A DNA stretch of 64,000 nt from Sphyrna mokarran (taxonomy: Eukaryota): the NCBI GenBank assembly GCA_024679065.1, contig JAGIQG010000021.1, forward strand, positions 41,106,001-41,170,000. Direction: 5' to 3'. Position 1 is the stretch's first letter. Each line of letters starts with the position of its first letter. The notes beneath the pieces are model-generated. The model was not told the origin of the DNA. It ran no database searches and saw only the letters and a list, made by a program, of their open reading frames with translations. Below, one piece after another: positions 1,873-62,031 of this stretch. The position numbers and the translations under genes are program-made.

Positions 1873-4061
1873 AAGGGTGGTTAGAGGAAAAATCGGACCT
1901 CTTGGGGACAGAGGAGGGGAACTGTGCTTAGAGCCCGAGGGAATGGCAGAGATTCTGAATGAATACTTTGCGTCGGTATTTACGAAGAAGAGGAGCTTGT
2001 TGACAGCTCCTGTCTCTGAGGGAGCTGTGGACCAGTTGAGGGAAATATCCATACCGAGGGAGGAAGTGTTAGAGCTTCTAGGTAGCATTAAAACTCCAGG
2101 GCCTAATGGCATTTATCCCAGGCTGCTTAGGAAGGTGGAAGGTGAAATTGCTGGGCCTCTGACGCAAATCTTTGTTTCTTCTTTGGACACAGGTAAGGTC
2201 CCAGAGGACTGGAGAATATCTAATGTTGTACCGTTGTTTAAAAAGGGTAGAAGGAATAACCCTGGAAATTGTAGGCCAGTGAGTTTGATGTCAGTGGTAG
2301 GGAAGCTGTTGGAAGAGATTCTTAGAGATAGGATGTATAGGCATTTAGAGCGTTGCGATCTGATTAGGGATACACAGCATGGCTTTGTTAAGGGGAGGTC
2401 GTGCCTTACAAATATGGTAGAATTTTTTGAGGAGGTGACGAAAACGGTCGACGAAGGGCAAGCCGTTGATGTCTATGTGGATTTCAGTAAGGCATTTGAC
2501 AAAGTCCCTCATGGGAGGTTAGTTGAAAAGGTCAAGGCTCATAGGATACAAGGACAGGTAGCTAGATGGATAAGTAACTGGCTTGGTAATAGAAGACAGA
2601 GTAATAGTGGAAGGGTGTTTTTCTAGCTGGAGGTCGGTCACGAGTGTTGTACTGCAGGGCTCTGTACTGGGACCTCTTCTATTTGTAATATATATAAATG
2701 ACTTGGAAGAGGGAGTAAGTGGAATGATCAGCAAGTTTGCAGACGATACAAAGATGGTTGGACTCGCGGATAGTGAGGAGCATTGTCAGGCGATGCAACA
2801 GGACGTGGATAGGCTGGTAGCTGAGCAGATAGATGGCAGATGGAATTCAATCCTGATAAATGCGAGGTGATGCATTTGAGGAGAAAGAATGTAGGGGGGA
2901 GGGTATATGACCTATTAAGAGTATAGAAACGCAGAGGGACCTGGGGGTGCAGGTGCACAAGTCTCTGAAGGTGGCAGAGCAGGTGGAGAAGGTTGTGAAG
3001 AGCATATGGTATGCTAGCTTTTCTAGGAAGGGGTATAGAGTACAAGAGCTGGCCTTTAATGTTGCAGTTGTATAAAATGTTGGTTAGACCTCATTTGGAA
3101 TACTGCGTCCAGTTCTGGTCGCCTTACTACTGGAAGGGAGTGGAGAGAGTGCAGAGGAGGTTTACCAGGATGCTGCCTGATATGGAAGGTCTGAGTTACG
3201 AGGAGAGGTTCGGCGAACTGGGATTGTTTTCCTTAGAAAGATGTAGACTTAGAGGAGATCTAATAAAGGTATACAAGATTATGAGGGGTACAGGGTTAAG
3301 CTTTTTCCTAGGATGGACTCGAATAGCATGAGGGGTCACGGGCTTAGGGTGAGGGGAGTAAGGTATAATTTGGATGCTAGAGGGAGTTTTTTCACACAGG
3401 GTGGTGGGGGTATGGAATGAGCTGCCAAGTAAAGTGGTGAAGGCAGGCACTCGAGTTATTTAAGAGATACTTAAATGGGCACGTGAACAGAATGGGAACA
3501 GAATGGGAATAGAAGGGTATAGAAAACTGATTTAAAATAGGGATCATGAGCCTTGGGAGTCCCTGGGAAGTGTGTAAGTAGATGATGATATTGATGTACT
3601 TGTTTTTATCCTACAGGTGCTTGTTGTCTAACAAGGGGCACACACGTGATGGGTCATGAGAGGGCTGCTCTTAGATTTTTTTTGAGAGTATCCTAGTGCT
3701 TCACGTCGTTAGTGTACGCTTGATCTGGACCATTTGATGGGCAACACGACAGCTCGGTGGTGACTATCACTGCGCTGTGCAGATACGTGGATTTGGGCCT
3801 GTGTCTGTAGGAGTTTGCACATTCTCCCTGTGCTTGCGTGGGTTTTCTCTGGGTGCTCCGGTTTCCTCCCACATCCCAAAGATATGCTCTTAGGCTGAAT
3901 GGCAAAACAAATTCTCCCTAAATTCTCAAATTTGGTTTTTAATCCATGGATCTATAAACATAGACAGGGATCATGGGTAGAGGTGGGAACATCGGGATGG
4001 CGGCGTGGGCTCGTTGGGCCGAAGGGCCTGTTTCCCATGCTGTTTTGTTCTTTGTTCTTTG
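1873..4061 (+). mobile_element. 5'-truncated CR1 LINE (frameshifted RT) with V-SINE module in 3' UTR, copy A
   Basis: ORF pieces with QHGF, DFSKAFDKVPH, QGSVLGPLLF, SKFADDTK, RPHLEYCVQFW. V-domain about 3800-3895. CR1 tail gggccgaagggcctgtt + (ttctttg)n. Confidence 0.92.
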
Positions 4062-6680: not shown

Positions 6681-7524
6681 TGTCCCAATCTAGTGATAGA
6701 AACATTATTGGGAAAGGACGATTAAAACCAAGGAAAGCCTGTTATTTAGCAGTGAATACTTCATTAGTTTTGTCTGAAACCCAAAATCTCTGAAGTTTAA
6801 ACTCTTAAGGTAACTCTGCTCATAGGATTCATTGCTTGTTTAAGTGCAGTCTTTAGATATCCAGAAGCAGTCATATAACTAAGACATAGCGCATGATGTC
6901 ATTGTACATGGGTGCAAAGAGGGATGGTAGACAAATGCCACTTGCTAAAATCTAAATGCAGGTAAGGTGAGTAGTTATGGATGAAATGGAGTATATGCAA
7001 AGCAAACCTTAGATCAAATGACACAGGCATGTTATTACAATCTGAAGTGATCAGTAACTTCCAGTTGGTAACTGAAAGCATGGCATGAGAAAATTTCATG
7101 TTTTAAGACTTTGTCTCCAACAATAAGGTGATGAGCACTTGATTAAACACTATTTTTATAGCCAAATTAAAAGGGGAAGTTCTGTTCTATAATTTAAAAT
7201 TGAACCCAACCAAAAAACTACATGAATGTGATTTAGTGCCCCTTTAATAGTTATTTGATGTTTTCTCCCTGAACTATTTCAGTGGTTCTTACCTCCCAAG
7301 GGTTTAGCTCCATTTCTGTCTTTTCCCAGCTTGGTAATGTTTAACCAGAACTGTCTTTGGCACTGAAATATTTCCCCCAACTCAAGCCAGGTAAACTTCC
7401 AGCTTTGTCTCCAGTCTTCACAAATACATTATTTTAATTGGGGCTTTTTTAAAAGTTCATTCATAGGCTAGATAGACCTGCATTTATTACCCATCCCTAA
7501 TCGCCCTTATGAAGGTGGCGGTGT

Positions 7525-9660
7525 GAACAAAGAACAAAACAGCACGGGAAACGGGCCCTTCGGCCCAGTGAGCCCGCGCCACCACCTCAATGTTCCCACT
7601 TCTACCCGTTCCCTGTCTATGTTTATAGATCTATGCATTGGAACCAAATTTGAGACCATTTAGGGAGAATTTGTTCTGCCAATCAGCCTAAGAGCACATC
7701 TTTGGGATGGGGGAGGAAACCGGAGTACCCGGAGACAACCCACACAAGCACAGGAAGAATGCGTAAACTCCCACAGACGCAGGCCCAAATCCATGTATCT
7801 GCACAGCACAACAATAGTCACTGAGCTGTCGTGTTGCCCACGAAATGGTCCAGGTCAAGCGCACACTAACGACGTGAAGCACTAGGATACTCTTAAAATC
7901 CAAGAGCAGCCTTCTCGCGACCCATCGCACGTATGCCCCTTGTTAGACAAGGCGGACCGAAGTACTTGTAGGATAAAACAAATACATCAATATCATCGAC
8001 AATTTACACACTTCCCAGGAACTCCCAAGGCTCATGAGCCCTATTTTAAATCAATTTTCTGTATCCCTCCATTCCCATTCTGTTCATGTGCCCATCTAAG
8101 TATCTCTTAAATAACTCGAGTCCTGCCTTCACCACTTTACTTGGCAGCGCATTCCATACCTCCGTCACACTCTGAAAAAAACTCCCTCTAGCATCCAAAT
8201 TATACCTTACCCCCCTCACCCTAAGCCCTCGTGCTGTTTGAGTCCATCCTACGAAAAAGCTTAACCCTGTTTACTCTATCTATATCCCTCATAATCTTGC
8301 ACACCTCTATTACATCTAAGTCTACATCTCTCTAAGGAAAACAACCCAATTTGCCTCTCCTCGTAACTGACCTTCCATATCAGGCAGCATCCTGGTAAAC
8401 TCCTGTGCACTTTCTCCAGAGTCTCCACATCCTTTTGATTGTAAGGTGACCGGAACTAGACGCAGTATTCCAAATGAGGTCTAACCAAAGTTTTATACAA
8501 CTGCAACATTAAAGGCCAGCTCTTATATTTTGTACCCCTTCCTATGAAGGCTAGCACACCATGTGCTTTCTTCACAACCTTCTCCACCTGCTCTGCCACC
8601 TTCAGAGACTTGTGCACCTGCATCCCCAGGTCCCTCTGTGTTTCTATACACCTAATAGGTCTGCCCTTTATCAGATAACTCCCCCCTACATTCTTTCTTC
8701 CGAAATGCATCACCTTGCATTTATCAGGATTGAATTCCATCTGCCATCTATGTCCTGCTGTATCGCCTGACAATGCTCCTCACTATCCACAAGTCCAGCC
8801 ATCTTTGTATCGTCTGCAAACTTGCTGATCATTCCACTTACTCCCTCTTCCAAGTCATTTATATACACTACAAATAGAAGAGGTCCTAGTACCGAGCCCT
8901 GTGGCATACCACTAGTGACCGACCTCCAGCTAGAAAAACACCCTTCCACTATTACTCTCTGTCTTCTATTACTAAGCCAGTTACTTATCCATCTAGCTAC
9001 CTGTCCTTGTATCTCATTAGCCTTGACCTTTTCAACTAACCTCCAATGAGGGACTTTGTCAAACACCTTACTGAAATCCATATACATGACATCAACGGTT
9101 CACCCTTCATCGACCGTTTTCGTCCCTCTTCAAAAAATTGTACCAGATTCGTAAGGCACGACCTCCCTTTAACAAAGCCATGCTGTGTATCCCTAATTAG
9201 ATCACAACGCTATAAGTGCCTATACATCCTATCTCTAACAATCCCCTCCAGCAGCCTCCCTACCACTGACATCAAACTCACTGGCCTATAATTTCCAGGG
9301 TTATTCCTTCTACCCTTTTTAAACAACAGTACAACATTAGCTATTCTCCAGTCCTCTGGCACCTCTGTGTCCAAAGAAGAAACAAAGATTTGCGTCAGAG
9401 GCCCAGCAATTTCACCTCGTGCCTCTCTCTAAGATAAATGCCATCAGGTCCTGGAGATATATCAGCTTTAATGCCACCTAGAAGCTCTAACACTTCCTCC
9501 CTCGGTATGGATATTTCCTTCAACTGGTCTACAGCTCCCTCAAAGACAGGACCGGTCAACAAGCCCCTCTTCTTCATGAATACCGATGCAAAGTATTCAT
9601 CCAGGATCTCCCCCATTCCCTCGGCTCTAAGCACAGGTCCGATTTTTCCTCTAACCACTT
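7525..9660 (-). mobile_element. 5'-truncated CR1 LINE with V-SINE module in 3' UTR, copy B (same subfamily as A)
   Basis: Minus-strand ORFs VVRGKIGP, YMDFSKVFDKVPH, SKFADDTK, RPHLEYCV. 3' UTR colinear with 3540-4061. Confidence 0.92.
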
Positions 9661-10472
9661 GCATTAATACTGTAATGAAGCCATTGCGAAAACCCCCCAG
9701 CTGCTACACTCGCTGTCTTCTTGAACTGCTGCAGTCCATGTGGTGCTTGTAGAGAGGGAGTTCCAGGATTTTGACACAGTAACAGTAAAGGAACACTGAT
9801 ATATTTTCAAGTCAGGATGATGAGCAGCTTGGAGGAGAATTTCCGGTGGTGTTCCCTTGTGTCTGCTGCTCTTGCTCTTTTAGGTAGGAACTGTTGTGAG
9901 TTTGGAGGGTGTTATCAAAGTAGTCTTGGTGAAATCCTGTCATACATCAATAGTGAAAAGAATGACATTCCCTCCACAAATGTCGAATCAGTGGGCTGCA
10001 TTATCCTGAATGGTGTCAAGCTTCTTGAGCTCCCACTGCATTCCTGCACTGAAGTTTCGACCTGCTGCTGCTACTATCCTGAATCCTGAAACATTACCAA
10101 CATCTGAGAGTTTCCAGGGGTGTGTTGGAAACCCCACCCTAATGAAAGCCTATATTCATGATTAAGTGAACCACATGGGTTTCCTATCCAAGCGGAAATG
10201 CTGATTAGTTATCCTTAAGACCTCAGCTCTCATTTTATCTTGAATTGAATTGACAGTTTAAAGCATATCTGTCATTCTAAAACCTTCCTGGTATTTTACA
10301 AGCATAGATGATGCTACTATTTCCACCTTATACTTTCTTTCCAGCAAAGAATCTGGCCCTCCTTTTAATCTGTACCAGCCAGTCAACAGTCCTATTTAGG
10401 CAGATCTCAGAGTAATTCACCTGCTTCCTTCATTTTAACCTCAATTAAAGAAACAGTCCCAAAGTGTAACAA

Positions 10473-11325: not shown

Positions 11326-12949
11326 CTATTCCTTAATGATTCACCTTTTTTCCCTCCACTCCCTAATCTAAAAGTCCACATGACTATTGATTAATGTGTG
11401 AAGAATAAATTTGGACCATCTTCACTTTGTCATCTGCTATTTGTCAATTTAACTGCAGTTAGTCTGCTAATTTGACCTTCCTTTTACAATTCGCTATATT
11501 ATATAATCTTGTTGATGATCCCTTTCAGTTGCTCCCTTTCAAACCTGAAGAATTTAAGTTTCTGATATCTTCTCTCATAGCTCACTCAGTCCTTCTGTGC
11601 TATAGATCAACATTTTGGGGTTCTTCTCCACTTTGCTTGCAAATATCGAATGACTTTCTGCTGATTTGATGAAATTTGACAGCAGTGGTTGAATTTCAGT
11701 CCACTGGAGCATTTTGCAATTTCAACATTCAGTGTGTTTGTAAAACAGAGACTAAGAGAATTTTCTTGGTGTATCTCAAAGAGGGGGGTGAGAAGAGGAA
11801 GGGAGTGTTTCTTCAGCTGATGTCAGCTAACAGGCACTTGTGAAAGACAATATGCAGTTTAATAGGAATTTTTATTTGACCAATATGTATTGGGAGAGAG
11901 TCAGAGGATTCCAACTTCTCTCTCATGAACAGCAAATAAACAAGCTGATATACATTTCTGAAGATTAGATCCTCCCACCTAACCTGTTATCCAAGCTGGA
12001 CGAAGCAATAATATTTATACACTTTATTTTCTTTGGCCATTAGCATCCTCCCTTCCAGCAGAATTCGGAATTAATTGGTCAACCAAATCCAGAGGTTCTT
12101 CGCCTCCCACTCCCTCCCCCATTGCCTACTTATCCATGCAAATCCAGTTGGTTCAAGGATCGCTCCTAACACCTGGGAACGAGAAGGGAGTCATTTTCTT
12201 GTCTGTTTTCTCCCCTTGTCAGTGGAGGCTGAATATGTCTATTCATTGCAACTAGAAGCTGAATCCTTCTATTCATTTTCAAAAACTGGAAGCTTGTAGT
12301 TGCTTGGACTGCCTCTGATACCATATATGCTGTATGCTTCATTGTTCCGAAAGAATGTAGCCTGTCTAAGCTTATTTCCCATTGTGCTTGAGGGTTAAAT
12401 GCTTGTTGGCCAAAGCTTGCAAGTAAATTCAAGAATACAATTTAAATTTACAATACTTGTTAAAAAATTATGTACTTATACAGACAATACTTTTGTATGA
12501 GGCACATTGTGATACTTTTGATTATGTTTAAGGCATATTGCAGTCCCCATTTTAAATTAATCTTTGTTTTAATAGTTTCAAAGCAGAGTACATTGCAGTA
12601 CAGTACAGAGACATTGCATTTTTCTTTCACAACTTAAACCAATTCTATGACTTAACCCAATATATGAAGTTGTATTTTGTCATTGACTAAATGCCAGATC
12701 ATTAAACAAAATTCATTTTTTCAGCATATTTGTTGTCAATAATGCTTTCTTAAGAAAAATCCTCTTCAAAATACTTCCAGTATTAATCCAACTGAAATTT
12801 GTTTAATACATCATATTGCTATTGAAATTTGATCTCAAATTGATGTGGTTGCATTTCCAACTGTGTAATGAACTTGAGATATTGAAGACTGAAAAGCTGT
12901 AGTCCTTGTTTTCCCAGCATGCAGTTCCTAAGAACCTATGCTAATTGAT

Positions 12950-13505
12950 GACAGTGGTTAGAGGGATCTGGGTTCAATTCCAGACTTGGGTGATTGTGTG
13001 TGGAGTTTGCACATTTGCTCCATGTCTGTGTGGGTTTTGGCTGGGTACTTTGGCTTTCTCCCTCAGTTCAGAGATGTGCGGTTTAGGTGGATTGGCTATG
13101 CTTCAAAAATTGTCCCTTAATGTCAGGGGGATTAGCAGGGGTTTCCAGGATAGGGCTTGGGTGAGGTTGTTGCAGGTGCAGACTCTGCACCATACTACCC
13201 ACAATGATTAGCACTGTTGTCTCTCAGTGCCAGAGTCCCAGGTCCAATTCCCAGCCTGGGTCACAGTCTGTGTCCCCGTGTCTGCACAAGTTTCTTTTGA
13301 GTCCTCTGGTCTCCCACAGTCCGAAAGACATGCTGGTTAGGTGCATAAGCCGTGCTAGCTTCTTTAGTGTATGCCAGGGGTGTGGTGGAGGGGAATTTCT
13401 CAGTAACTTTATTGCAATATGAATGTAAGTCTACTTGTGACACTAATAAATAAACTTCAAAACTCTATGGGTCAAATAGCCTCCTGTACTGTGGAGATTC
13501 TATGA
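12950..13505 (+). mobile_element. Two nested tRNA-derived V-SINEs (HE1-like)
   Basis: Outer SINE has ggttcaattcc B box and V-domain ggagtttgcac. Inner SINE about 13187-13461 ends taataaataaact. actct repeats at both junctions, and the outer tail resumes at 13462. Confidence 0.8.
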
Positions 13506-19273: not shown

Positions 19274-20600
19274 GGCTTTTAGATACAGAAGCAGAATTTG
19301 GCCATTTGGCCTGTTGAGTCTTTTCATGGCTGATATGTTTCTCAACCCCATTCTCCTGCTTTTTCCTGGAACCCATATCTATCTCTCAAATACACTTAGT
19401 GACCTGGTCTCCACAGGCTTTATGGCAGTGAATCCCAAAAGTTCACTGCCTGCTGGCTGAAGAAATTTCCCCCCTCATCTAAAGTCATTCCTTTACTCTG
19501 ATGCTATGCTCTCGGATCCTAGTCTGATGTAACGGAATCATCGTCTCCATGTCAAGTCTACCTAGGGATTTTGTATGTTTCAATGAGATTGCTCCTCATC
19601 TTTCTATACTCCCAAGCACAGTTCTCAAACACTTATTATACATCAAACTTTTCATTCTTAGGATCATTCTCATGAACCTCCTCTGGATCCTTTACAAGGC
19701 CAGCACATCCTTCAATGATGGATTTGAAATTGCTCTCAATATTCCAAATGCAGTTTGACCAGAGCTTTATAAAGCCTTATCAGTGCATCCTTGCTTTTAA
19801 GTTCTAGTCCCCTTGACATGAATGCTAACAGTGCATTTGCTTTTCTAACTATCAACTCAACTTGCAGGTTAAACAATAAGAAAATGCTGAACCAGGAATC
19901 CCAAAGGACTTGGAATGATTTCTAAATTATTTTCTGTCTTGGAAAATAGTCTGTGTCTCAGTTATTACAACCAAAGTACATAACCTCACACTTTCCCATC
20001 TGTTAGTTCTCGTAACTGTCCAAAACCTTCTGCAACCTCCCTGTCTCATTACTACCTGTACCTCCACTAGACTTAGTATCATCTGCAAACTTAGCCACGG
20101 TGTCTTCAGTTCCTTTATCTAGATCATTTGTATATAAAGAGAAAATTTGTGGTACCAACACTTAAAGCAGCTGCGTTTTTTGTAGCAACAGTAATTGAAG
20201 TATTTTTAATAATTCTAAAAGAACATCCCCAAAGAAAACTACATACTTAGACTAATTATTCTTTCTAGTTTTTAAAAAAATACTATTTTTGCCCACCACT
20301 AGAGGAAATCTGACTATGCATACTACATAGGAGAGCCAGTGGACATTATCTACTTGAATTTCCAAAAGGCCTTTGACAAGGTGCCACATAGAGAGCTGTT
20401 GAATAAGATAAGAGTCATCAGCTGCCATCCTGAAAAGGCCGTCTTTATTCCCCCTCTGCCTTCTGCCAGTCAGCAATCTTCTGTCCCTACTAGCACCTTG
20501 CCTGTAACACCATGGGCTCTTATCTTATTCAGCAGTCCTCTGTGGCACCTTGTCAGAGCCTTTCGGAAATTCAAGTAGATAATGTCCATTGGCTCTCCTG
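19274..20600 (-). mobile_element. Old CR1 3' portion interrupted by an inverted duplication at 20161-20418
   Basis: Antisense CR1 tail near 19280-19370. RT motifs resume at 20419 and reach the DIIYLNF region at about 20600. Confidence 0.75.
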
Positions 20601-20787
20601 TATAATATGCATAGTCAGATTTCCTCTCGTGGTGGGCAAAAATAGTATTGCTTAATCAAAAAAGAATAAGTAGTCTAAATAGTAGTTTTCTTTGGAAATA
20701 TTTTTTAGTATCATTAAAGTTACTTAATTACTGTTGCTACAAAAAATGCACCTGCTTTAAGGAAGGGAATCATGGGGTGGGGGGGGG

Positions 20788-22247: not shown

Positions 22248-22401
22248 AACTTTTGCCAGGATATCACTAGCAGTAGTTTCTGTTCCTGCTCCCATATACT
22301 CTGAGGTAATCTGTTCTTGATCCCTCCTACTTGTATATGCTGTTCCTCAATTAAATAATTAGAGAGCAATTGTTAGTTTCCATGTATATGCTGAGGGCAC
22401 C

Positions 22402-22561
22402 CTGACCAAGCAGGGTGAAACCATGATCAGATCGGTGGTTCGCCCAGGTCAACGCTAGCTCATTGCACTTTGGGTGTGTTGACACCTGCGATGTCCCCAA
22501 ATGCGGGATACTCAGCTGCAAAATTTGTGGTAGTGGGGGATTACGTTCGCGCTCTCCCCTG
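22402..22561 (+). pseudogene. U1 snRNA-derived retrocopy (variant U1)
   Basis: Colinear with U1: accatgatca, U1A loop attgcac, ccccaaatgcggga, Sm site aatttgtgg, 3' stem gttcgcgctctcccctg. Flanked by 12-bp direct repeat gctgagggcacc (22390-22401, 22583-22594). Confidence 0.93.
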
Positions 22562-22844: not shown

Positions 22845-23875
22845 GATACAAAACCTCATTTCCAAAATTTGACAATGATAAAGATCTGGCAGTTTAAGCA
22901 ATGTTGATGGGTGTATAATACTGCTGAGATATAGTTAGGTGATGTGAATTGGCAAATCTCTAGCTAATGGATTTCTGTTTGGAGAATATAAGGTCATTCA
23001 CTGACCCACAAAGGTACTTCCTGATTGAAACAGTGCAGGTCTAAAGAGATTTGGTGGTCCAGGTACTATACCGTTAAAGTTATGAACAGGCATAGAAAAT
23101 ACTCTTAAGTCTCAGAATGCTGGCTTTGAGTTTAATAGAAGAAAGTAAAAATACAACTTCTGATATACAAAGCCTCGGTTTGTCCATTCCTGGACAGCAA
23201 ACCTTAGGAAGTATATATTATTCTTGGATGGAATCCAGAATAGCTCCAAGGATTAAATTACGAGGGGAAATTAACAAACTCAAGTACCAGTTCCTGGCGT
23301 TTAGAGATTAAGGTGTTTGGATCAAAATTTTCAAGGGATCACAGGACATTGATTGGATAGATAGAGTACCTGTTTCTACTGTTGGGGAACAAAGGAGATC
23401 TTTAAAAATTCATGTCAGGCTATTGATTAGTGAAATTAGCAAAGGGATGTAAAACAGAAAACTTGCTGAATTTACATTCCATTGCTTCCTTACTAATCAG
23501 GCAGTATCAGAGATGGAAGTGGGCAGTTTCACTAATGGGATGTACGTGAGATCAGAAGCTCATCTTGGAATTAAATGTGACATGAAGGTGGCAACCGTCT
23601 GGAGTCATTGGCTGGTATGGTCTGAAAAGAATGGTTGAGTCTTCACAATATTTAGTCAAAGTAAATTTCCAGAGAGTATTCTGGAAATATCAATTGATGC
23701 CAATCAATTGTAAATTTTAAACCTGAGATTAATAAATCTTGGTTGTCCAAGGGTACTAAGAGCTATGGGCAAAGGTAAGTTGGTATGAAGTTAGATTGCA
23801 GATCAGCCATAGTTTCATTGGATGGCAGAACAGACCTTTGGGGCTAAATAGTCTACTCTTGTTCATATGCTCTTA
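22845..23875 (+). mobile_element. Ancient CR1 3' portion with internal insertion
   Basis: Decayed SKFDND and downstream RT motifs, tail gatcagccat...gggctaaatagtctactc. Confidence 0.55.
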
Positions 23876-24432
23876 AATTATCATAGTACTTGTCCATTGT
23901 ATTGGATTGGTAGAAATTTACTGCAACTAAATATTGTGAAGACTCAATGATACCTTTACATGCAGTTGAAACCTTAGTGTCACATTTGATTCCATGATGA
24001 GCTTCTGATCCCATATCTGTCCCATCACTGAAATTGCCCATTTTCACCTCTGACAGTGCCTGATTAGCAGGAAAGACAATAGGCAACAGAATATGAAATT
24101 CAGCAAGTTTTCTGTAGCTGCGCAACCATTGGTGCGACCATAGCTGGAGCATTGTGTGCATACGATATAATTGAGTTAAAAGAAGTATGGAGAAACTCTA
24201 TTCAGTTTATTCCTGAGGTGAGGGGTTTATCTTGTGAAGCAAAGCTGAATAGATTGACCGTATACCTATTGGAGTTTAGAAGAATGAAAAGCGATCTTTG
24301 TGAAACATACAGGATCCTGAGGAGACTTGATAGGATAGAATGATTCCACTTGTGGGGCAGACTAGAACTAGGGAACACAGTTTAAGAATAAGAGCTTTCT
24401 CTTTTAGGACTAAGATGAGAAGATTTTTTTTT

Positions 24433-26268
24433 GGACACGAGAAGATGTTGGCTGATAGGATTAAGGAGAATCCTAAAGCTTTCTTTCGATATGTTAAGAA
24501 TAGAAGATTGGTTAGGGCAAGATTAGGGCCAGTCATAGACAGCAGTGGGAAGTTGTGCGTGGAGCCTGAAGAGATTGGTGAGGCACTGAATAAATATTTC
24601 TCTTCGGTATTCACGCAGAGTGCTGGAAATGTAGCTGTGGAGAGCACTGAGGTACAGGGTTGCAAATTGGGAAGTATTGTAGTAGATAGGGAGGATGTGT
24701 TAGAAATTCTCGAGGGTTTGAAGTTGGATAAGTCCCCTGGGCCGGACGGGATTTACCCTAGGATTCTCTGGGAGGCAAGAGAGGAGATTGCAGAGCCTCT
24801 GGCTCTGATCTTCAGGTCCTCGTTGGTTACGGGTGTGGTTCCGGAGGACTGGAGGATAGCGAATGTGGTCCCATTGTTTAAGAAGGGGAAGAGAGACCTT
24901 CCAGGGAATTATAGGCCAGTGAGTCTTACTTCTGTTGTGGGCAAGGTATTGGAGAGAATTATTAGGGATAGGATTTATAGTTATTTAGAGAGAAATGAAT
25001 TGATTGGGGATAGTCAGCATGGTTTCGTGAAGGGTAGGTCATGCCTTACTAACCTCATTGAGTTTTTTGAGAAAGTGACCAGAGAGGTGGATGGGGGTAA
25101 GGCGGTTGATGTAGTATATATGGACTTTAGTAAGGCGTTTGATAAGGTGGCCCATGGAAGACTTCTACAGAAAATGCAGATGTGTGGAATAGAGGGTGAT
25201 TTAGCTAATTGGATTAGGAATTGGCTGGCAGATAGAAGACAGAGGGTGGTGGTTGATGGGAGATATTCATCGTGGAGTTCGGTGACGAGTGGTGTGCCTC
25301 AGGGGTCTGTTTTGGGGCCCCTGCTGTTTGTAATTTTTATAAATGATCTGGATGAGGGTATTGAGGGATGGATCAGTAAATTTGCAGATGATACTAAAGT
25401 TGGTGGTGTGGTAGATAGTGAAGAGGGGTGTTTTAGTTTACAGAGTGACTTGGACAAGTTGCAGAGCTGGGCCGAGAGGTGGCAAATGGAGTTTAATGTG
25501 GAAAAGTGTGAGGTAATGCACTTTGGCAGGAACAATAAATGTGTAGAGTATAGGGCTAATGGTAGGGCTCTTAATAGTGTTGAGGAACAGAAGGATCTTG
25601 GTGTATGTGTCAATAGATCCCTGAAAGTAGGCAGTCAAGTGGATAAAGTTGTTAAGAAGGCATATGGAGTCTTAGCTTTTATTGGTAGGGGGATTGAATT
25701 TAGGAGCCGCAGCATCATGTTGCAACTGTACAAAACTCTAGTGCGGCCGCACTTGGAGTATTGTGTGCAGTTCTGGTCCCCACATTATAAGAAAGATGTG
25801 GAGGCATTGGAGAGGGTACAGAGGAGGTTTACCAGGATGTTGCCTGGTATGGAGGGCAGGTCCTATGAAGAGAGGTTGAAGGATTTGAGGTTGTTTTCGT
25901 TAGAAAGGAGGCGGCTAAGAGGGGATCTTATTGAAGCATATAAGATGATTAGAGGTTTAGATAGGGTGGACAGTGATAGCCTTTTTCCTAGGATGGAGAA
26001 AGCTAGCACGAGGGGACACAGCTTTAAATTAAGGGTATGAGTTATAGGACGGATATCAGAGGTAGGTTCTTTACTCAGGAGTGATTAGGGAGTGGAATGC
26101 CCTGCCTGCGGCAGTTGTAGATGCGCAAGTTTGGTGGCGTTTAAGAGGTTAGTTGATAAGTATATGGAAGAGAAGGGAATGGTTTAGTTTGGAGGGTCAT
26201 TGCTTTTTATTTTGGTCGGCACAACATCGAAGGCCGAAGGGCCTGTTCTGTGCTGTATTGTTCTATGT
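24433..26268 (+). mobile_element. Young 5'-truncated CR1 LINE with uninterrupted RT frame
   Basis: Open frame 24433-26040 with all RT motifs (QGSVLGP, FADD). TSD aaga(t)8-9 at 24420-24432 and 26269-26280. Nested in an older CR1 tail (about 24135-26470). Confidence 0.95.
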
Positions 26269-26859
26269 AAGATTTTTTTTAAGGGTTAGTTTGTGGTTTT
26301 CTGTTTGCGGAAAACATTAAATTTATTCATATTATAGAATTTTTGATACAGGTTTCAAGGGTTATCATGTGGGCGGGTGGCGGGGCATAGACAACGAAGT
26401 AGATCAGCCATGATTTATTGAATGGTGGAGCGGGCCTGACAGGCTGAATGATCTCCTCGTGTTCCTATATAAATATGTTGCTGTTGCCGTGTAGCTTAAC
26501 CATTGGGGAAGAGCTTGGTCCCTTCGTTCTCCTACTTTGAGATGGAGAGGTCAGATACCACAGGTGAGAAGACTGATACAAAAATGGTCTATAAAATGAA
26601 ATGCATCAATCCACAGGGCACTTTTACACATGGATAGTCTCTTCATCCCTTACCTTTCTTTATTTCACTGTGCTTCCTTTGAATCTAGCTCTGCTTTGTA
26701 TTAAAGAGTAGACTGCAAGAGAAAGCTCTGATCTTGCCCCTTTTACTCTTCTCAAAGCTTGCAGTGTCAAGATGTTACACTCCTGATAGCCAGTTGATGA
26801 GGACAAAGCAAGAGCCATTCTTGGAATAGATTTATTAATAGCATTATGGGTGTATATCT

Positions 26860-32630: not shown

Positions 32631-33292
32631 TTGTATAACTCCAACCCAAGTTTTCCAAATTTGCCAGGACTCCTTGATGCCGCACTCAGTCAAGTGCTGC
32701 CTTAGTCATTGTCATCTGCTCTCTTCAAGTTCAGCTCTTTTGTCCATGTTCGGACCAAGGCTGTATTCAAGTTAGGAGCCAAATGGCCTTGATGGAATCT
32801 ATACTAAGCATCAGTGAGCAAGTCCTTGCTGTGTAAGGGCCATCTAATAGCACTGTCACCGACACCTTACAAAATTTTTCTATCCCATTTAACACGGTGA
32901 TAGTGCTATACAATGCGATGGAGGATATGCTCAGCCTGAGGATGAGGTTTTCTCGCTGCTACAACTATGAAGTCGTCATTCCGACCTACGCTTGTTGTGG
33001 AGAGATGCATCTGTGGCAGGTTGATTCATGAGGACAAGGTGTAGTGGCTTTTTCCTCTTGTTAGTTTCTTCATGTGCCCAGTCTGGCAGATGTGTCTTTC
33101 TGAACTTCACCTAATGGATGCCCAGTCTTGAGTTGCTAGATCTGGGCAAAATCTATCCCGTTTAGCACCAGATAGTGGTTTTCTTGTTCATGTTGGAGGT
33201 CATTAGGACATTAGGACGGCGGCATGGGCTCGTTGGGCTGAAGGGCCTGTTTCCTGTGCTGTGTTGCTCTTTGTTCTTTGTTGGGACTCTGA

Positions 33293-39070: not shown

Positions 39071-40272
39071 ATTTTTTTTTTTTTTTTAAAGCAACACAGC
39101 ACGGGAAACAGGCCCTTCGGCCCAACGAGCCCGCGCCACCGTAATACCAAATCATTATCCTATTTTAATAGTCCTATATAATAGTATATATATTAATCCT
39201 AATTTGGAAAATTTTCACCATAGGGACAATTTGTTACCCAATCAGCCTAAGAGCGAATTTTTGGGTTGTGGGAGGAAACCGGAGTGCCCGGAGAAAACCC
39301 ACGCAACCACGGGGAGAACGCGCAAACTCCCGCAGACACCGGCCCAATTCCAAGTGTCTGCACAGCCACATCGATAGTCTCTGAGCTGTCATGGTGCCCT
39401 TCAGATGGTCCACATAAAGCACTCATATACGACATGAGGTACCAGGCAACCCATGAATCAACATCCAAGAGCTGTACCCGCACCACCTGCCGAATGCGTG
39501 CTCAAGTTGGTCAATTATGGACCGAATTACCTGTGGAAAAAAGCCGTAGTTAAACAGTCCTAATATATCCCTCTATCTGCATACCGCTCATGTGGCTGTC
39601 CAAGAGACCCTTAAACAGCCCCAGCGTGCCTGCTCCCACCACCTTACTCGGCAGTGCATTCCACACCCCCACTACCCTTTGTGTGAAAAACTGCCCTCTA
39701 ATATTCGTCCTATACATAGCCCCCCTCACCCTATGGCCATGACCTCTCGTCCTATCCATTTCTAAAGGTGGAAAAAGTTTACCTCCATTTACTCTATCTA
39801 TACCCCTTATAATCTTATACACCTCTATGAGATCCCCTCTAAGCCGACGTCTTTCAAGGGAAAACAACCCCAGTCTATCTAATCGTTCCTCATAGGACAG
39901 TCCTTCCATACCAGGCAGCATCCTGGTAAACCTCCTCTGCACTCTCTCCAAGGACTCCACATCCTTCCGATAGTACGGAGACCAGAACTGGGCGCAGTAT
40001 TCCAAGTGAGGCCTAACCAAAGTTGTATACAACTGCAACATCAAACTCCTACTCTTATATTCTATACCCTTTTCTATGAAAGCTAACATACTATACGCCT
40101 TCTTTGTCACCTTCTCCACCTGTGAGGACACCTTCAGAGACTTGTGAACCTGCACCCCCAAGTCTCTCTGCGTCTCTATTGTCCTTATAGTTTTACCTTT
40201 TATCCTATAATTCTCTTCTACATTTTTCCGGCCAAAATGCATCACCTCGCATTTTTCCGGATTAAATTCCAT
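39071..40272 (-). mobile_element. Young CR1 3' portion with V-SINE module in 3' UTR, copy C (second subfamily)
   Basis: Intact 240-aa ORF2 C-terminus (39550-40272), V-domain about 39245-39345, same tail as copies A/B, then an A-run. Confidence 0.92.
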
Positions 40273-41147
40273 TTATACATTCCAAGTAATACATGACTTG
40301 TTTCTCAAGTGGCAAAATAAACGTGTTCCTCAAAGTGGAAAAGGTCATGTATGTGTTTTCTTTTGGAGATGTAGTTAATGTGTAAACATGTAGGGAAAAT
40401 GTAACTTATTCCTATATTCCTACAACTTATTTGGAAAGATAGTGGAAAATCTTCATATTTATTCATTTGAAACAGGCCCAATTTCCCCAAATAAATAAAA
40501 TCTTGCTATGGCCAACACTTTGTCCTGGGGAACCAGTAACCATGGTGTTTGCTCAGGAAATGGACCATATATATCAGAAATTTCCGGATTCACTTTCTAA
40601 TCTGTGCACAGTTAACTAAGTTAGTTGGGGATGACAAAATTAACGCTGCAATCAGCCCATGTTCTTGGTAAGGGAAGAGAAAATTCATTGGAGTTCCCAT
40701 TCCAGATCGCTATCTGGTGAATTCTATTTGGTATTGGATGATGAGACAGTTAAGCTCAGCTGCTTCCCTCCAGCTGTCATTTGCTTTGCAAATCTGTTTG
40801 CTAAGTTGTAATTGTTTTACTATACAAAGTACAGAGTGTTGATGTTTTGCAATTCCAGAATCTTGGGCAAAATCTGTATTGAGACAATTGTTGCTGAAAT
40901 TTGTCACAGGGAAGACAGCAGTAGAGCAAAATGGTATCCCTAAGCATGCCAAATTTACTTCCATTTTAAAAAACAGTCCTCATTTTCCTTCCATTGATGT
41001 TGCGCATCACATTATAAGCTTGAATACTTGTAAAATTGAATAGATCTGTATGTTGAGAAAAGGTACAGTATTTAGGACCTAGTGGATAGTATGATTTTAG
41101 TACAGTATCTTTTCTGCTTTCTTATTTCTCCTCTTTCTTTTAAACAG

Positions 41148-46549: not shown

Positions 46550-49500
46550 GTAGTGCATGAGTAGGCCATTGAGCCCTTTGAGGCTGCTTGGTTATTTAAT
46601 ATGATCATAGCTGATACTCAAGTGCCTCATACTCTTTGTTCAGAATTTTATATGTTTCCATGAGATTTCCCACCCCCTCTTTTTAATCACCAGTAAACAC
46701 AGGCCCAATCAACCCAGTCTCTCTCCATATGACAACCCTGCTGTCCCAGGGGTCAGTCTGGTTAACTTTTGTTGCATTTCCTCCATGACTAGTATATCCT
46801 TTCTTGGGTAAGAAGATGAAAACAGCACACTAACTGTGATCTCACCAAGTCTGTGTACAGCTGCAGCAAGATATCCTTCCTCCTGTATTCAGCAATGAAG
46901 ACCAACATATCATTAGCTGCCTCAACTGCTTGCTGCACCTGCATGCTTGTTTTCAGTGATTGGTGTGCAAGGACAATCTATCACTATTTAAATAATACCC
47001 TGCCGTTCTGTTTTTCCGACCCAAAGTGGATAACTTCACACTTAGCCATATTACACTGCATCTGCCATGTATTTTCTCACTCAGCCAACTTGTTTAAATT
47101 GCCAGTGAAACCTCTTTACATCCTCCTCACCACTCACTCCCACCAATTTTCATGTCACCAGCAAGCTTGGAAATGTTAAACTTGCCTTCCTTGTCCAATT
47201 TGTTAATGTGTATATTGTGAATAGCTGGTGCCCAAGCACTGATCCCTGCAGTGTGCCAGGAGTCACAGTCTGCAATTCTGAAAAATTCTCATTCCTATTT
47301 TGTTTCCTGCCTGCTAACCAATTCTCAACACATGCCAATATATTAACCCTAATCCCATGCACTTTAATTTTGCACACTAACCTCTTGTGTAGAACTTTAA
47401 AGACTTTCTGAAAATGCAAATAGGCCACATCTCGTTGTTTTGTCCTATGATTCTGCCAGTTGCATTCCCACAAAAAGACTCCAGTAGGTTTGTCGAATAT
47501 GATTATCCTTTTATAAATCCACATTTGTCTAATCATGTTGATATTTTCTAAATGTCCTGTTAACACTGACTTTATTATAAGGTCCTAGGATTTTCTCTAC
47601 TGCTATTAGGCTAATCAATCCATAATTCTCTTTTTTTTTTTCTCCCCCTCTTTTTCAAATAGTGGTTACATTTGCCACCACTAATCTGCCAGGCCTGTTC
47701 CATAATGTGTAGAATTTTGAAAGATAACAACCAACGCAACCACTATTTCCATGGCCACCTCCATTTGTAGCCCAGGGTGTACATTATTCAATCCCCCTAA
47801 TTTCTCCAGCACTTATTTCATGCTAACTTCCTTTAATTCCTCCTCACTAGGCCCTTGGTTCTCTAGCATTTCTGAGAAGTCAATTGTGTCTTTCTCCATG
47901 AAGCCAGAACTAAAGTAGTTGTTTAATTGGTCTGACAATTCCTTGTTCTCTATTGTAAATTCTCAACGTCGGATTGTGATCTGCATTTGTCTTTGCTAAT
48001 TGTTTTCTTTTTGCATACTTACTAAGCTTTTTATAATCTGTTTTCATGTTCTTTGCAAGTTTACCGACTCATCCTACTTTTTCCCCTCCTAATTAATGTC
48101 TTTGATCTCCTTTGTTGAATTCTAAACTGCTCCCAATCCTCAGGCTTGATTTTTTTTAGAAACATTATGACTCTTTTGGACTTCGTATAATACCTAACTA
48201 CTTTTGTTTGCCATGGTTAGGCTGCTTTTCCAGTTGTTTTTGTGCCAGGAGGGAATATATAGTTGCAATGCATACATTTGTTACTTAAATATTAGTAACA
48301 AGTCTCACAACATCAGCCCAAAATAAAATAAAGCCCAACAGGTTTATTTTGTAGGACAAGCTTTCAGAGTGTCACTATTTCAGGTGAATGAGGAGTGGTG
48401 TTTACAAACAGGGCATATACAGACACAAACTCAATTTACAAGATAATGCGAGTCTTTAATCAAGCCTTAAAGGTGCTCACAATGTGGGTGGAGGGCGGGT
48501 TAAGCACAGACTAAAGAGGTGTATATTGTCACCAGCCAAGAATGTTAGCGAGACCCTGTGAGCCACAGGGTTGGGGCCACAGACAATGACATGATCCATG
48601 ATCCAAGATCCCAGTTGATGCCAACCTCGTGTGGAACTTGCCCATCAGTTTTGGCTATCAGTTACAGAAACTGATAGCCAAATTCCGCATGCATGAGGAC
48701 AGCCTCAACCAGGATCTTGGGTTTATATCACACTGTCTGTGGCCTCCATGCCTTGATGTGGAGATGCTGGCATTGGACTGGGACAAACACAGTAAGAAGT
48801 CTCGCGACGCCAGGTTAAAGGCCAACACGTTTATTTGGTAGTAAACACCACTAGCTACCCCTTCATCAGATGAATGGGGAGTTCGCCTGGGCTTGAGGAG
48901 TCTCACTAACTGTCCAAGCTGGAGACAATACACACCTCTTTAACCTATGCTTAACCCTCTCTCCGTTCACATTGTCAGTACCTTTAAGACTTGATTATCT
49001 ATAACCTCTTGCATTCCAACCATTATGTTGTAAATTGAGTTTGTCTCTATACATGCTCAGTTTGTGAACACAACTCCTCACTCATCTGAAGGAATGACAC
49101 TCAGAAGTTGTGCCAACAAATAAACCTGTTGGACTTTAACTTGGTGTTGTGAGACTTCTTACTGTGCTTACTCCAGTTCAACGCTGGCATCTCCACACCT
49201 TTAAATATTAGCTATTTCCTATCTACCAAATGACTTTTAATGAAATTCTCCAATCTATCTTGGCCAACACAAGCTTTGTACCTTTGTAGTTTTCTTTGCT
49301 TAAAGTTAGGACTCTAGTTTCAGATTGGGCTACTTCACTTTCTGTCCAGATGAATAATTCAGTTATGTTGTTGTCATTGTTCTCTGAACAACAAAATTAT
49401 TAATTACCCTTTCTCATTGTACAGTGCAAAATCCAGGATAGCATTTCCTTAGTTGGTTCCTCAATGTACTGGTCTGTAAAAATCTATCTACCATAGTAGC

Positions 49501-60500: not shown

Positions 60501-60526
60501 ACATCTATATTGTTTCAAATTATTAG

Positions 60527-61846
60527 AGAATTATTAGGGATAGGATTTATAGTTATTTAGAGAGAAATGAATTGATTGGGGATAGTCAGCATGGTTTTGT
60601 GGAGGGTGGGTCGTGCCTTACTAACCTCATTGAGTTTTTTGAAAAAGTGACTAAAGAGGTGGATGGGGGTAAGGCGGTTGATGTGGTATATATGGACTTT
60701 AGTAAGGCGTTTGATAAGGTGGCCCATGGAAGACTTCTGCAGAAAATGCAGATGTATGGGATAGAGGGTGATTTAGCTAATTGGGTTAGGAATTGGCTAG
60801 CAGATAGAAGACAGAGGGTGGTGGTTGATGGGAGATATTCATCTTGGAGTTCGGTGACGAGTGGTGTACCTCAGGGGTCTGTTTTGGGGCCCCTGCTGTT
60901 TGTAATTTTTATAAATGATCTGGATGAGGGTATTGAAGGATGGATTAGTAAATTTGCAGATGACACTAAAGTCGGTGGAGTGGTAGATAGTGAAGAGGGG
61001 TGTTATAGTTTGCAGAGGGACTTGGACAAGTTGCAGAGCTGGGCCGAGAGGTGGCAAATGGAGTTTAATGTGGAAAAGTGTGAGGTAATGCACTTTGGCA
61101 GGAATAATAAATGTGTAGAGTATAGGGCTAATGGTAGGATTCTTAATAGTGTTGATGAACACAGGGATCTTGGTGTATATGTGCATAGATCCCTGAAAGT
61201 AGGCAGTCAAGTCGATAAGGTCGTTAAGAAGGCATACGGAGTCTTAGCTTTTATTGGTAGGGGGATTGAATTTCGGAGCCGCAACGTCATGTTGCAACTG
61301 TACAAACTCTAGTGCGGCCGCACTTGGAGTATTGTGTGCAGTTCTGGTCCCCACATTATAAGAAAGATGTGGAGGCATTGGAGAGGGTACAGAGGAGGTT
61401 TACCAGGATGTTGCCTGGTATGGAGGGCAGGTCTTATGAAGAGAGGCTGAGGGATTTGAGGTTGTTTTCGTTAGAAAGAAGGCGGCTAAGAGGAGACCTT
61501 ATTGAAACATATAAGATGATTAGAGGTTTAGATAGGGTGGACAGTGATAGCCTTTTTCCTAGGATGGAGAAAGCTAGCACGAGGGGACATAGCTTTAAAT
61601 TAAGGGGTGGTGGTTTAGGACAGATGTCAGAGGTAGGTTCTTTACCCAGAGGGTGGTAAGGGTATGGAATGCCTTGCCTGCGTCAGTTGTAGATGCGCCA
61701 AGTTTGGTGGCGATTAAGAGGTTAGTAGATAAGTTTATGGATGAAAGGGGAATGGTTTAGGTTAGAGAGTCACTGCTTGTTCCTAATTGGTCGGCGCAAC
61801 ATCGAAGGCCAAAGGGCCTGTTCTGCGCTGTTATGTTCTATGTTCT
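60527..61846 (+). mobile_element. Young 5'-truncated CR1, same subfamily as 24433-26268
   Basis: ORFs 60572-61312 and 61312-61659 nearly identical to the 24-kb copy. One-base deletion (caaactcta vs caaaactcta) shifts the frame. Confidence 0.95.
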
Positions 61847-62031
61847 AGGTGTTTGGAGCTTGGACCTTGAAAGCAATGTTCAAGTGTTCAAGGCCAAATA
61901 TTAGCAATTGGTTTCTAGCTGTTAACATGAAAATGGTATGAAATTTGTAGGTATTTATTGTACTAACCTTTATATGACGTGCTCTTATATGCTTGTCTTT
62001 GTACTTGTGTATCTTTGTACCTGCCACTTAT

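What the first reader, a model, noticed from the sequence alone, without database searches (positions are those of the whole stretch)
3535..4061. CR1 LINE families that carry a decayed V-SINE inside their own 3' UTR
Seen three times (3535-4061 +, 7525-8060 -, 39090-39550 -): ORF2 stop, 150-200 nt spacer, ggaccat.tg..gggca.ca.gacagctc (decayed tRNA-like head, no recognisable B box), a well-kept V-domain (ggagtttgc...ctccggtttcctcccaca.cccaaa...ttaggctga), a short linker, then the CR1 tail. Copy C has a different ORF2 subfamily, spacer and linker but keeps the same module, so it is inherited within the LINE lineage and is not a chance insertion. Known: shark HE1 SINEs borrow the CR1-type LINE tail, and the function of the V-domain is unclear. 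Inference: the reverse capture occurred, and the V-domain is kept because it benefits the LINE RNA (stability or retrotransposition).
Basis: partly seen in the sequence, partly recalled or inferred. Interest (0 to 1): 0.75.

Follow-up and report, generated by a model that had tools for sequence, protein, structure and literature searches.

The report
Shark LINE keeps a captured SINE
One lineage of shark jumping genes (CR1 LINEs) carries, in its own untranslated tail, a piece of a parasite element (a V-SINE) that has changed far less than the sequence around it, which hints that this long-unexplained conserved SINE domain helps the RNA that carries it get copied.

Summary
Observation confirmed. 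Three 5'-truncated CR1 copies (A 1878-4061 +, B 9657-7521 -, C 40275-39090 -) run ORF2 stop, spacer, tRNA-like head remnant without B box, V-domain, linker, CR1 tail. Their ORF2 ends form one clade (100/99); 3 of 3 carry the module, 0 of 6 other CR1 3' ends inspected do. Spacers are homologous and the V copies share private states: one capture, inherited. Between subfamilies (A=B sites against C) V is 84/93 and the head remnant 52/59 identical, against spacer 73/125, linker 42/74 and third codon positions 129/185. Between dead copies A and B every part decays alike (8-15%), so the constraint acted on active elements, not on genomic copies. The head is therefore remodelled and kept, not just decayed. 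Best reading: a cis-acting RNA element kept by element-level selection (0.55); main rival: recent block exchange between subfamilies (0.25). Limits: three copies, A and B probably from one source element, no genome-wide count, Repbase/Dfam unchecked. A 2016 paper says such domains are not found in LINEs; ten literature searches showed no CR1 case. Precedent for capture: MER6.

The parts
1878..4061 (+). Copy A: 5'-truncated CR1 LINE (subfamily AB) with the module in its 3' UTR
1878..3535 (+). Copy A: broken ORF2 remnant (RT and C-terminal part), stop at 3533-3535
3536..3727 (+). Copy A: spacer of unknown origin, homologous to the spacer of C
3728..3797 (+). Copy A: remodelled tRNA-like SINE head (A-box-like trace, no B box; predicted new hairpin at its 3' end)
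3798..3903 (+). Copy A: V-domain with the 39-nt hairpin core
3904..3989 (+). Copy A: linker (first ~20 bases still SINE-like, rest fast-evolving)
3990..4061 (+). Copy A: CR1 tail stem-loop and short terminal repeat
7521..9657 (-). Copy B: 5'-truncated CR1 (subfamily AB); same 5' end point as A
7784..7850 (-). Copy B: head remnant
7678..7783 (-). Copy B: V-domain
7521..7592 (-). Copy B: CR1 tail
39090..40275 (-). Copy C: young 5'-truncated CR1 of a second subfamily with the same module
39550..40272 (-). Copy C: open ORF2 C-terminal frame, 240 codons plus stop
39412..39549 (-). Copy C: spacer
39343..39411 (-). Copy C: head remnant
39237..39342 (-). Copy C: V-domain
39090..39145 (-). Copy C: CR1 tail, followed by an A run
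33208..33280 (+). Tail-only insertion with the same tail type as A/B/C; too short to show the module

Best explanation
A V-SINE entered the 3' UTR of an active chondrichthyan CR1 once, between the ORF2 stop and the LINE's own tail (shown: order, homology and single origin; inferred: route, SINE insertion into a source element or template switching during reverse transcription). The lineage went on as coding LINEs and split into subfamilies (shown for two). The SINE's Pol III B box was lost and its 3' part eroded, while about 175 bases (remodelled head plus V-domain) changed as slowly as the best-kept ORF2 windows (shown). Because inserted copies lose this block as fast as any other part (shown), the filter acted at each round of copying: elements with an intact block left more copies (inferred). 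Most likely mechanism (inferred, untested): the block is a cis-acting RNA element of the LINE mRNA; its hairpins dock a host RNA-binding protein that keeps the RNA stable or brings it to ORF2p just upstream of the tail stem-loop. Loss of the B box would stop every copy from giving off a competing SINE-like Pol III RNA (inferred).
For: One clade, 100/99 in a DNA tree of 8 window copies and in a protein tree of 60 rows. Module in 3 of 3 clade members, 0 of 6 other CR1 3' ends inspected. AB against C: V 84/93, head 52/59, spacer 73/125, linker 42/74, codon positions 1/2/3 156/190, 167/197, 129/185, four-fold sites 23/34; V against spacer p 1e-7, linker 6e-7, third positions 8e-5, four-fold 0.004; head against four-fold 0.027. 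Block 136/152 equals the best 176-base ORF2 window (0.90). A against B differences are even: ORF 72/663, spacer 21/186, block 20/173, linker 7/83, tail 9/61. Module V copies are one group against 6 free copies (95/98), with 9 of 90 shared columns in a state no free copy has. Tail is of LINE type, not that of the free SINE. The 39-base core folds as a hairpin with an internal loop (A -13.5, C -15.7 kcal/mol; 9 of 9 pairs kept in A and C, 8 of 9 in B), as described for the Vhc subdomain (PMC4758252, section read). Identity rises gradually on the 5' side (about 0.5, 0.7, 0.9), less like a sharp exchange tract.
Against: Three copies, in effect one contrast of two subfamilies; A and B share a 5' end point and probably a source. 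No genome-wide count. No segment of the module folds better than shuffles (z from -2.1 to +0.6), and only 1 of 61 predicted pairs shows a two-sided change; 2 of 7 variable core columns are paired against 18 of 39 paired overall, not significant. PMC4758252 notes that the Vhc hairpin does not appear kept within whole fish V domains. V is not significantly more conserved than codon positions 1 and 2 or the tail (p 0.08, 0.27, 0.20). At least one state I counted as private also stands in MER6 (by eye), so the donor may be a V-SINE family absent from this window. In the first DNA tree a long-branched distant CR1 left the clade unresolved. Segment borders were set after seeing the alignment. No protein partner or activity was measured.
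Confidence: 0.55

Rival explanations
1. Recent exchange, not selection: the SINE was captured once and drifted, but the head+V block was later swapped or converted between subfamilies AB and C by template switching (the 'conserved domains are recombination hot spots' idea), so it only looks young.
For: The block is more alike than most of ORF2; identity falls quickly at its 3' edge (0.79 to 0.35 over 60 bases). Template jumping between this CR1 and V-SINE RNA seems to happen here: B's 5' junction carries a 46-base piece of a free V-SINE 3' part (78%, E 2e-6). Module exchange is a published hypothesis (PMC5804259, passages).
Against: Needs two switches bracketing just this block while spacer and linker, homologous on both sides, stay diverged; the 5' edge is gradual. 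It does not explain why the V core is still about 90% like MER6/Ac1-type V domains (by eye) while the head beside it moved far from SINE heads.
Confidence: 0.25
2. Repeated conversion from an abundant free V-SINE family that is not sampled in this window keeps the V part fresh; no function for the LINE.
For: V-SINE copies are dense here (five loci in 64 kb); only 6 free copies of two tail types were compared; published V domains share at least one module state.
Against: The remodelled head, which no free copy has and which lacks a B box, is as conserved as V (52/59); module copies are 85-90% alike but 59-74% like the free copies.
Confidence: 0.1
3. Neutral hitch-hiker: a SINE that landed in a successful source element is carried passively (as argued for MER6), and the contrast comes from small numbers, fast indel-rich spacer/linker evolution or local mutation-rate differences.
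For: One subfamily contrast; 34 four-fold sites only; no folding signal over shuffles; MER6 shows passive carriage is possible (PMC6887750, parts 1-3 of 5 read).
Against: Three separate near-neutral yardsticks (spacer, linker, third codon positions) agree at 0.57-0.70 against 0.89; alignment bias would raise, not lower, spacer identity; mutation since insertion is even across segments.
Confidence: 0.07
4. Reverse direction: this CR1 3' UTR is the source of the V-domain.
For: LINE UTRs are the source of part of the Ceph domain (PMC5786205).
Against: The clade is nested among chondrichthyan CR1s whose inspected 3' ends lack V; a tRNA-like head trace precedes V; V/Vhc occurs in SINEs from cnidarians to vertebrates (PMC4758252).
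Confidence: 0.03

Closest known systems
HE1 V-SINE and its partner HER1 (CR1-type LINE) of sharks and rays (table in PMC3747384, passage seen; original papers not held)
   Same: tRNA-like head, V-domain and CR1-type tail in the same order; free V-SINEs of this build are in the window.
   Different: Here the head and V lie inside an ORF2-coding LINE, upstream of the LINE's own tail; B box lost; no boundaries of a separate insertion. Identity to HE1 or HER1 reference sequences could not be tested.
MER6/MER6A MITE (PMC6887750, parts 1-3 of 5 and supplement passages)
   Same: A V-SINE without a working head carried inside another mobile element and spread by it; V sequence about 90% alike by eye.
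   Different: MER6 is a non-autonomous DNA transposon with no RNA stage, and the paper reports neutral-rate divergence; here the carrier is a coding retrotransposon whose RNA holds V, with slower change between subfamilies.
Ingi-3_AC 5' UTR with a Ceph-SINE/RTE-like stretch (PMC5786205)
   Same: A LINE UTR that may have taken sequence from a SINE by recombination.
   Different: 5' UTR; the stretch is itself RTE-derived; suggested only, no test of constraint.
Short-3'-UTR chondrichthyan CR1s (6 copies in this window; named relatives from sharks, rays and Callorhinchus at 54-69% protein identity)
   Same: ORF2 C-terminus, 5' truncation, tail stem-loop.
   Different: Their tail follows the stop within roughly 100 bases; the module clade has a 460-525-base 3' UTR.

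Membership tests
CR1-clade LINE (chondrichthyan) | ORF2 homologous to and nested among CR1 ORF2 proteins | tested here: met
   nested among elasmobranch CR1 proteins; amniote CR1 outside
CR1-clade LINE (chondrichthyan) | 3' tail stem-loop ending in a short tandem repeat | tested here: met
   stem-loop in A, B, C like the other window CR1 tails; A and B end in a short repeat, C in an A run
CR1-clade LINE (chondrichthyan) | Source elements coding (purifying selection on ORF2) | tested here: met
   positions 1/2 82-85% against position 3 70%; C frame open over 240 codons
CR1-clade LINE (chondrichthyan) | Full-length copy with ORF1, endonuclease and RT | not testable with these tools
   all three copies are 5'-truncated; no genome held
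V-SINE superfamily | V highly conserved domain | tested here: met
   by-eye match to published MER6/Ac1/Racla domains
V-SINE superfamily | tRNA-derived head with Pol III A and B boxes | tested here: not met
   B box 3 mismatches, A box 2; head only modestly like free heads; no tRNA or Rfam hit
V-SINE superfamily | Short unit that inserts on its own | tested here: not met
   3 of 3 module copies are joined to spacer and ORF2; no free copy of this module in the window
HE1 / HER1 specifically | Identity to the HE1 and HER1 reference sequences | not testable with these tools
   reference paper not held; Repbase/Dfam not available; names recalled and seen in a table
Vhc subdomain | 37-39-base hairpin with an internal loop | tested here: inconclusive
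   predicted in A and C, weakened in B; no excess stability over shuffles for the whole V segment; figure of the published structure not seen

The most novel reading that the evidence does not exclude
This is an autonomous LINE lineage that domesticated its own parasite: it took a SINE highly conserved domain, removed the Pol III promoter and keeps the V-domain plus a rebuilt head as a working RNA element. That would be direct evolutionary evidence that the V-domain serves the retrotransposing RNA itself, independent of Pol III and of host benefit, and would give the first autonomous element in which its function can be assayed.
Probability: 0.45. Interest if true: 0.8.

Novelty: new variant of a known kind. 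Interest (0 to 1): 0.6.

Why it matters
[quoted passage not shown] This lineage separates the ideas: the domain sits in a Pol II-type coding RNA that needs no tail exchange, stays conserved between active subfamilies, and decays neutrally once inserted, which points to the element and away from the host. Because the carrier encodes its own reverse transcriptase, a simple deletion assay could test V function without a helper element.

Tried and rejected
Finding more copies: no genome is held for the window. A module pattern gave 0 stretches in viral contigs, 0 in metagenome contigs and 1 in genome contigs, a bacterial chance match with no V context. A tail pattern gave 0 in viral contigs. C's ORF2 gave 42 metagenome loci, all distant CR1s (27-72% best segment); 0 of 42 match either module UTR or a free V-SINE; 0 in viral contigs. 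A translated spacer+head frame of C found no protein. The run search listed 20 runs, 1 with half or more of the words; none was laid, so the shares are no evidence of spread across species. Earlier findings of the scan: nothing by place or first word search, one unrelated note. Rfam: no hit in C's spacer/head at E up to 10; no tRNA gene. Spacer origin: no other match in the window. A splice-acceptor-like run in the spacer was dropped: 16% of 852 background windows hold one as good, and B lacks the AG. Local DNA duplication of A into B was considered: flanks are unrelated and nearly all indels are private, so two insertions from one truncated source fit better. Rows left out: the long-branched CR1 at 19.4-20.0 kb was in the first DNA tree and left out, and its 3' end was not inspected; the fragment at 22.6-22.8 kb and tail-only pieces were too short for trees; 52 of the 120 listed proteins entered the protein tree.

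Full report
Setting. The window is vertebrate DNA rich in CR1 LINEs and V-SINEs; the closest named proteins to copy C's ORF2 end are from sharks, rays and chimaera. No whole genome is held, so all counts below are for the 64-kb window unless stated.

Observation. Copies A (1878-4061, +), B (9657-7521, -) and C (40275-39090, -) are 5'-truncated CR1s. Each runs ORF2 stop, spacer, head remnant, V-domain, linker, tail. A module pattern occurs 3 times, 0 times in 100 shuffles. C's ORF2 end is an open frame of 240 codons. The V segment matches free tRNA-headed SINEs at five loci and by eye the V domains printed in the supplements of PMC6887750 and PMC5804259 (about 70 of 78 letters for A against MER6). 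The head is only modestly like free SINE heads (0, 76 and 12 of 2000 shuffles for A, B, C) and has lost the B box (3 mismatches against 0-2 in 6 of 6 free copies; consensus recalled).

One capture in one lineage. A, B and C form a clade at 100/99 in a DNA tree of 8 window copies, and in a protein tree of 60 rows a 100/99 clade with three unnamed ENA proteins whose DNA I could not see. With a long-branched distant CR1 included, the first DNA tree left the clade open. The six other CR1 3' ends inspected (17.9, 22.8, 26.3, 36.3, 45.5, 61.8 kb) have short UTRs and no V: 3 of 3 against 0 of 6. The spacer of C is homologous to those of A and B (0 of 1000 shuffles), the linker weakly so (1 of 1000). 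Module V copies group together against 6 free copies (95/98), with 9 of 90 shared columns in a state absent from all free copies; at least one of these states also stands in MER6, so the donor may be another V-SINE family. The tail is of the LINE type, not that of the free CR1-tailed SINE, so the SINE came in upstream of the LINE's own tail. Direction is SINE into LINE: the clade is nested, a head trace precedes V, and V/Vhc is far older (PMC4758252, section read).

Independence. A and B start within a few bases of the same point, lie 3.5 kb apart in opposite orientation, have unrelated flanks and almost only private indels. They are best read as two insertions from one truncated source. The evidence is thus one subfamily contrast.

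Constraint. At sites where A equals B, identity to C is: V 84/93, head 52/59, tail 43/52, codon positions 156/190, 167/197, 129/185, four-fold sites 23/34, spacer 73/125, linker 42/74. V exceeds spacer (p 1e-7), linker (6e-7), third positions (8e-5) and four-fold sites (0.004), but not positions 1 and 2 or the tail (0.08, 0.27, 0.20); the head exceeds four-fold sites (0.027) and spacer (4e-5). The 176-base block (136/152) equals the best ORF2 window of that size (0.90); the tail core is higher still (25/25, 26/28). Borders were set after seeing the alignment. The control is the key: between dead copies A and B, differences are even over ORF (72/663), spacer (21/186), block (20/173), linker (7/83) and tail (9/61). 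So the block is not protected in the genome; it was kept, or refreshed, in the chain of active elements.

Structure. The 39-base core folds as a hairpin with an internal loop in A and C and is weakened in B, as described for Vhc (that paper adds that the hairpin does not appear kept in whole fish V domains). A new 8-9-pair hairpin is predicted where the B box was (pair probability 0.85-1.0 in A and C, about 0.35 in B). But no segment beats shuffles clearly (z -2.1 to +0.6) and covariation is nil with three rows (1 of 61 pairs). Structure is a lead only.

Mechanism. Shown: anatomy, single origin, coding carriers, slow block between subfamilies, neutral decay after insertion. Inferred (0.55): the block is a cis-acting RNA element that raises the copying rate, most likely by binding a host protein that stabilises the RNA or brings it to ORF2p beside the tail stem-loop, the part that stringent LINE proteins recognise (PMC4176376, listing only); B-box loss would silence a competing Pol III transcript. 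Rivals: recent exchange of the block between subfamilies (0.25; B's 5' junction holds a 46-base piece of a V-SINE 3' part, a sign of template jumping here); conversion from an unsampled free SINE (0.10); neutral carriage and small numbers (0.07); LINE origin of V (0.03).

Known work. PMC5804259 (passages) lists three untested explanations for these domains and says none has been found in LINE sequences. PMC5786205 (parts 1-4 of 5 read; supplement searched) compared Repbase SINEs with LINEs and reports no V-domain in a LINE. PMC6887750 (parts 1-3 of 5) describes V carried in the MER6 DNA transposon. PMC13343379 (abstract, passages, supplement search) surveys vertebrate CR1-group elements and mentions no SINE in a 3' UTR; its consensus set is on Zenodo and was not seen. 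PMC4824008, PMC3747384, PMC5499810, PMC11481361 and bioRxiv 2025.02.02.635956 were seen as passages only and showed no such case. Ten searches found no CR1 with an internal V-domain. The original HE1/V-SINE papers, Repbase and Dfam could not be seen, so a library entry with this build may exist. It works like MER6 in carrying V without a promoter, it is a CR1 by the tests that could be run, and it is not a V-SINE (head and autonomy tests not met).

Verdict. A real, inherited LINE-SINE composite with a clear constraint signal from a thin sample. New variant of a known kind; interest 0.6. How common the module is genome-wide and across species remains open.

Noticed in passing
window 1878 (+) and 9657 (-): Copies A and B are 5'-truncated within a few bases of the same point, 3.5 kb apart and inverted, with unrelated flanks and private indels; suggests one truncated source RNA used twice.
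   Followed up: partly
window 9657-9712 (-): B's 5' junction carries a 46-base piece like the 3' part of a free V-SINE of the second tail type (78%, E 2e-6), a possible template jump from CR1 to SINE RNA; B sits inside another repeat's tail (L2-like, recalled).
   Followed up: partly
window 22399-22561 (+): Full-length U1 snRNA copy (Rfam 101.8 bits) flanked by a 12-13-base direct repeat, a retrocopy; a CR1 3' fragment starts about 60 bases downstream but outside the repeat.
   Followed up: partly
window 12940-13500 (+): A V-SINE of the second tail type is nested inside a CR1-tailed V-SINE; two V-SINE tail types coexist in the window.
   Followed up: no
window ~3600-3620 (+), ~39545-39528 (-): A pyrimidine run with CAG is the best-kept block at the start of the spacer in A and C; as a splice acceptor it is not above background (16% of windows) and B lacks the AG.
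   Followed up: yes
window 39075-39090 (-): Copy C ends in a run of about 15 A instead of the short terminal repeat of A and B; target-site run or tail change not settled.
   Followed up: no
window 20229-20723, 23454-24115, 48294-49197: Long fold-back (inverted) arrangements; the first overlaps CR1-like sequence.
   Followed up: no
window 24170-26290 and 60516-61850 (+): Two young copies (93% alike) of a short-UTR CR1 subfamily, active alongside the module clade.
   Followed up: partly
proteins P0002, P0034, P0059: Unnamed ENA proteins fall in the module clade and imply at least two more subfamilies or species; their 3' UTRs could not be seen.
   Followed up: partly
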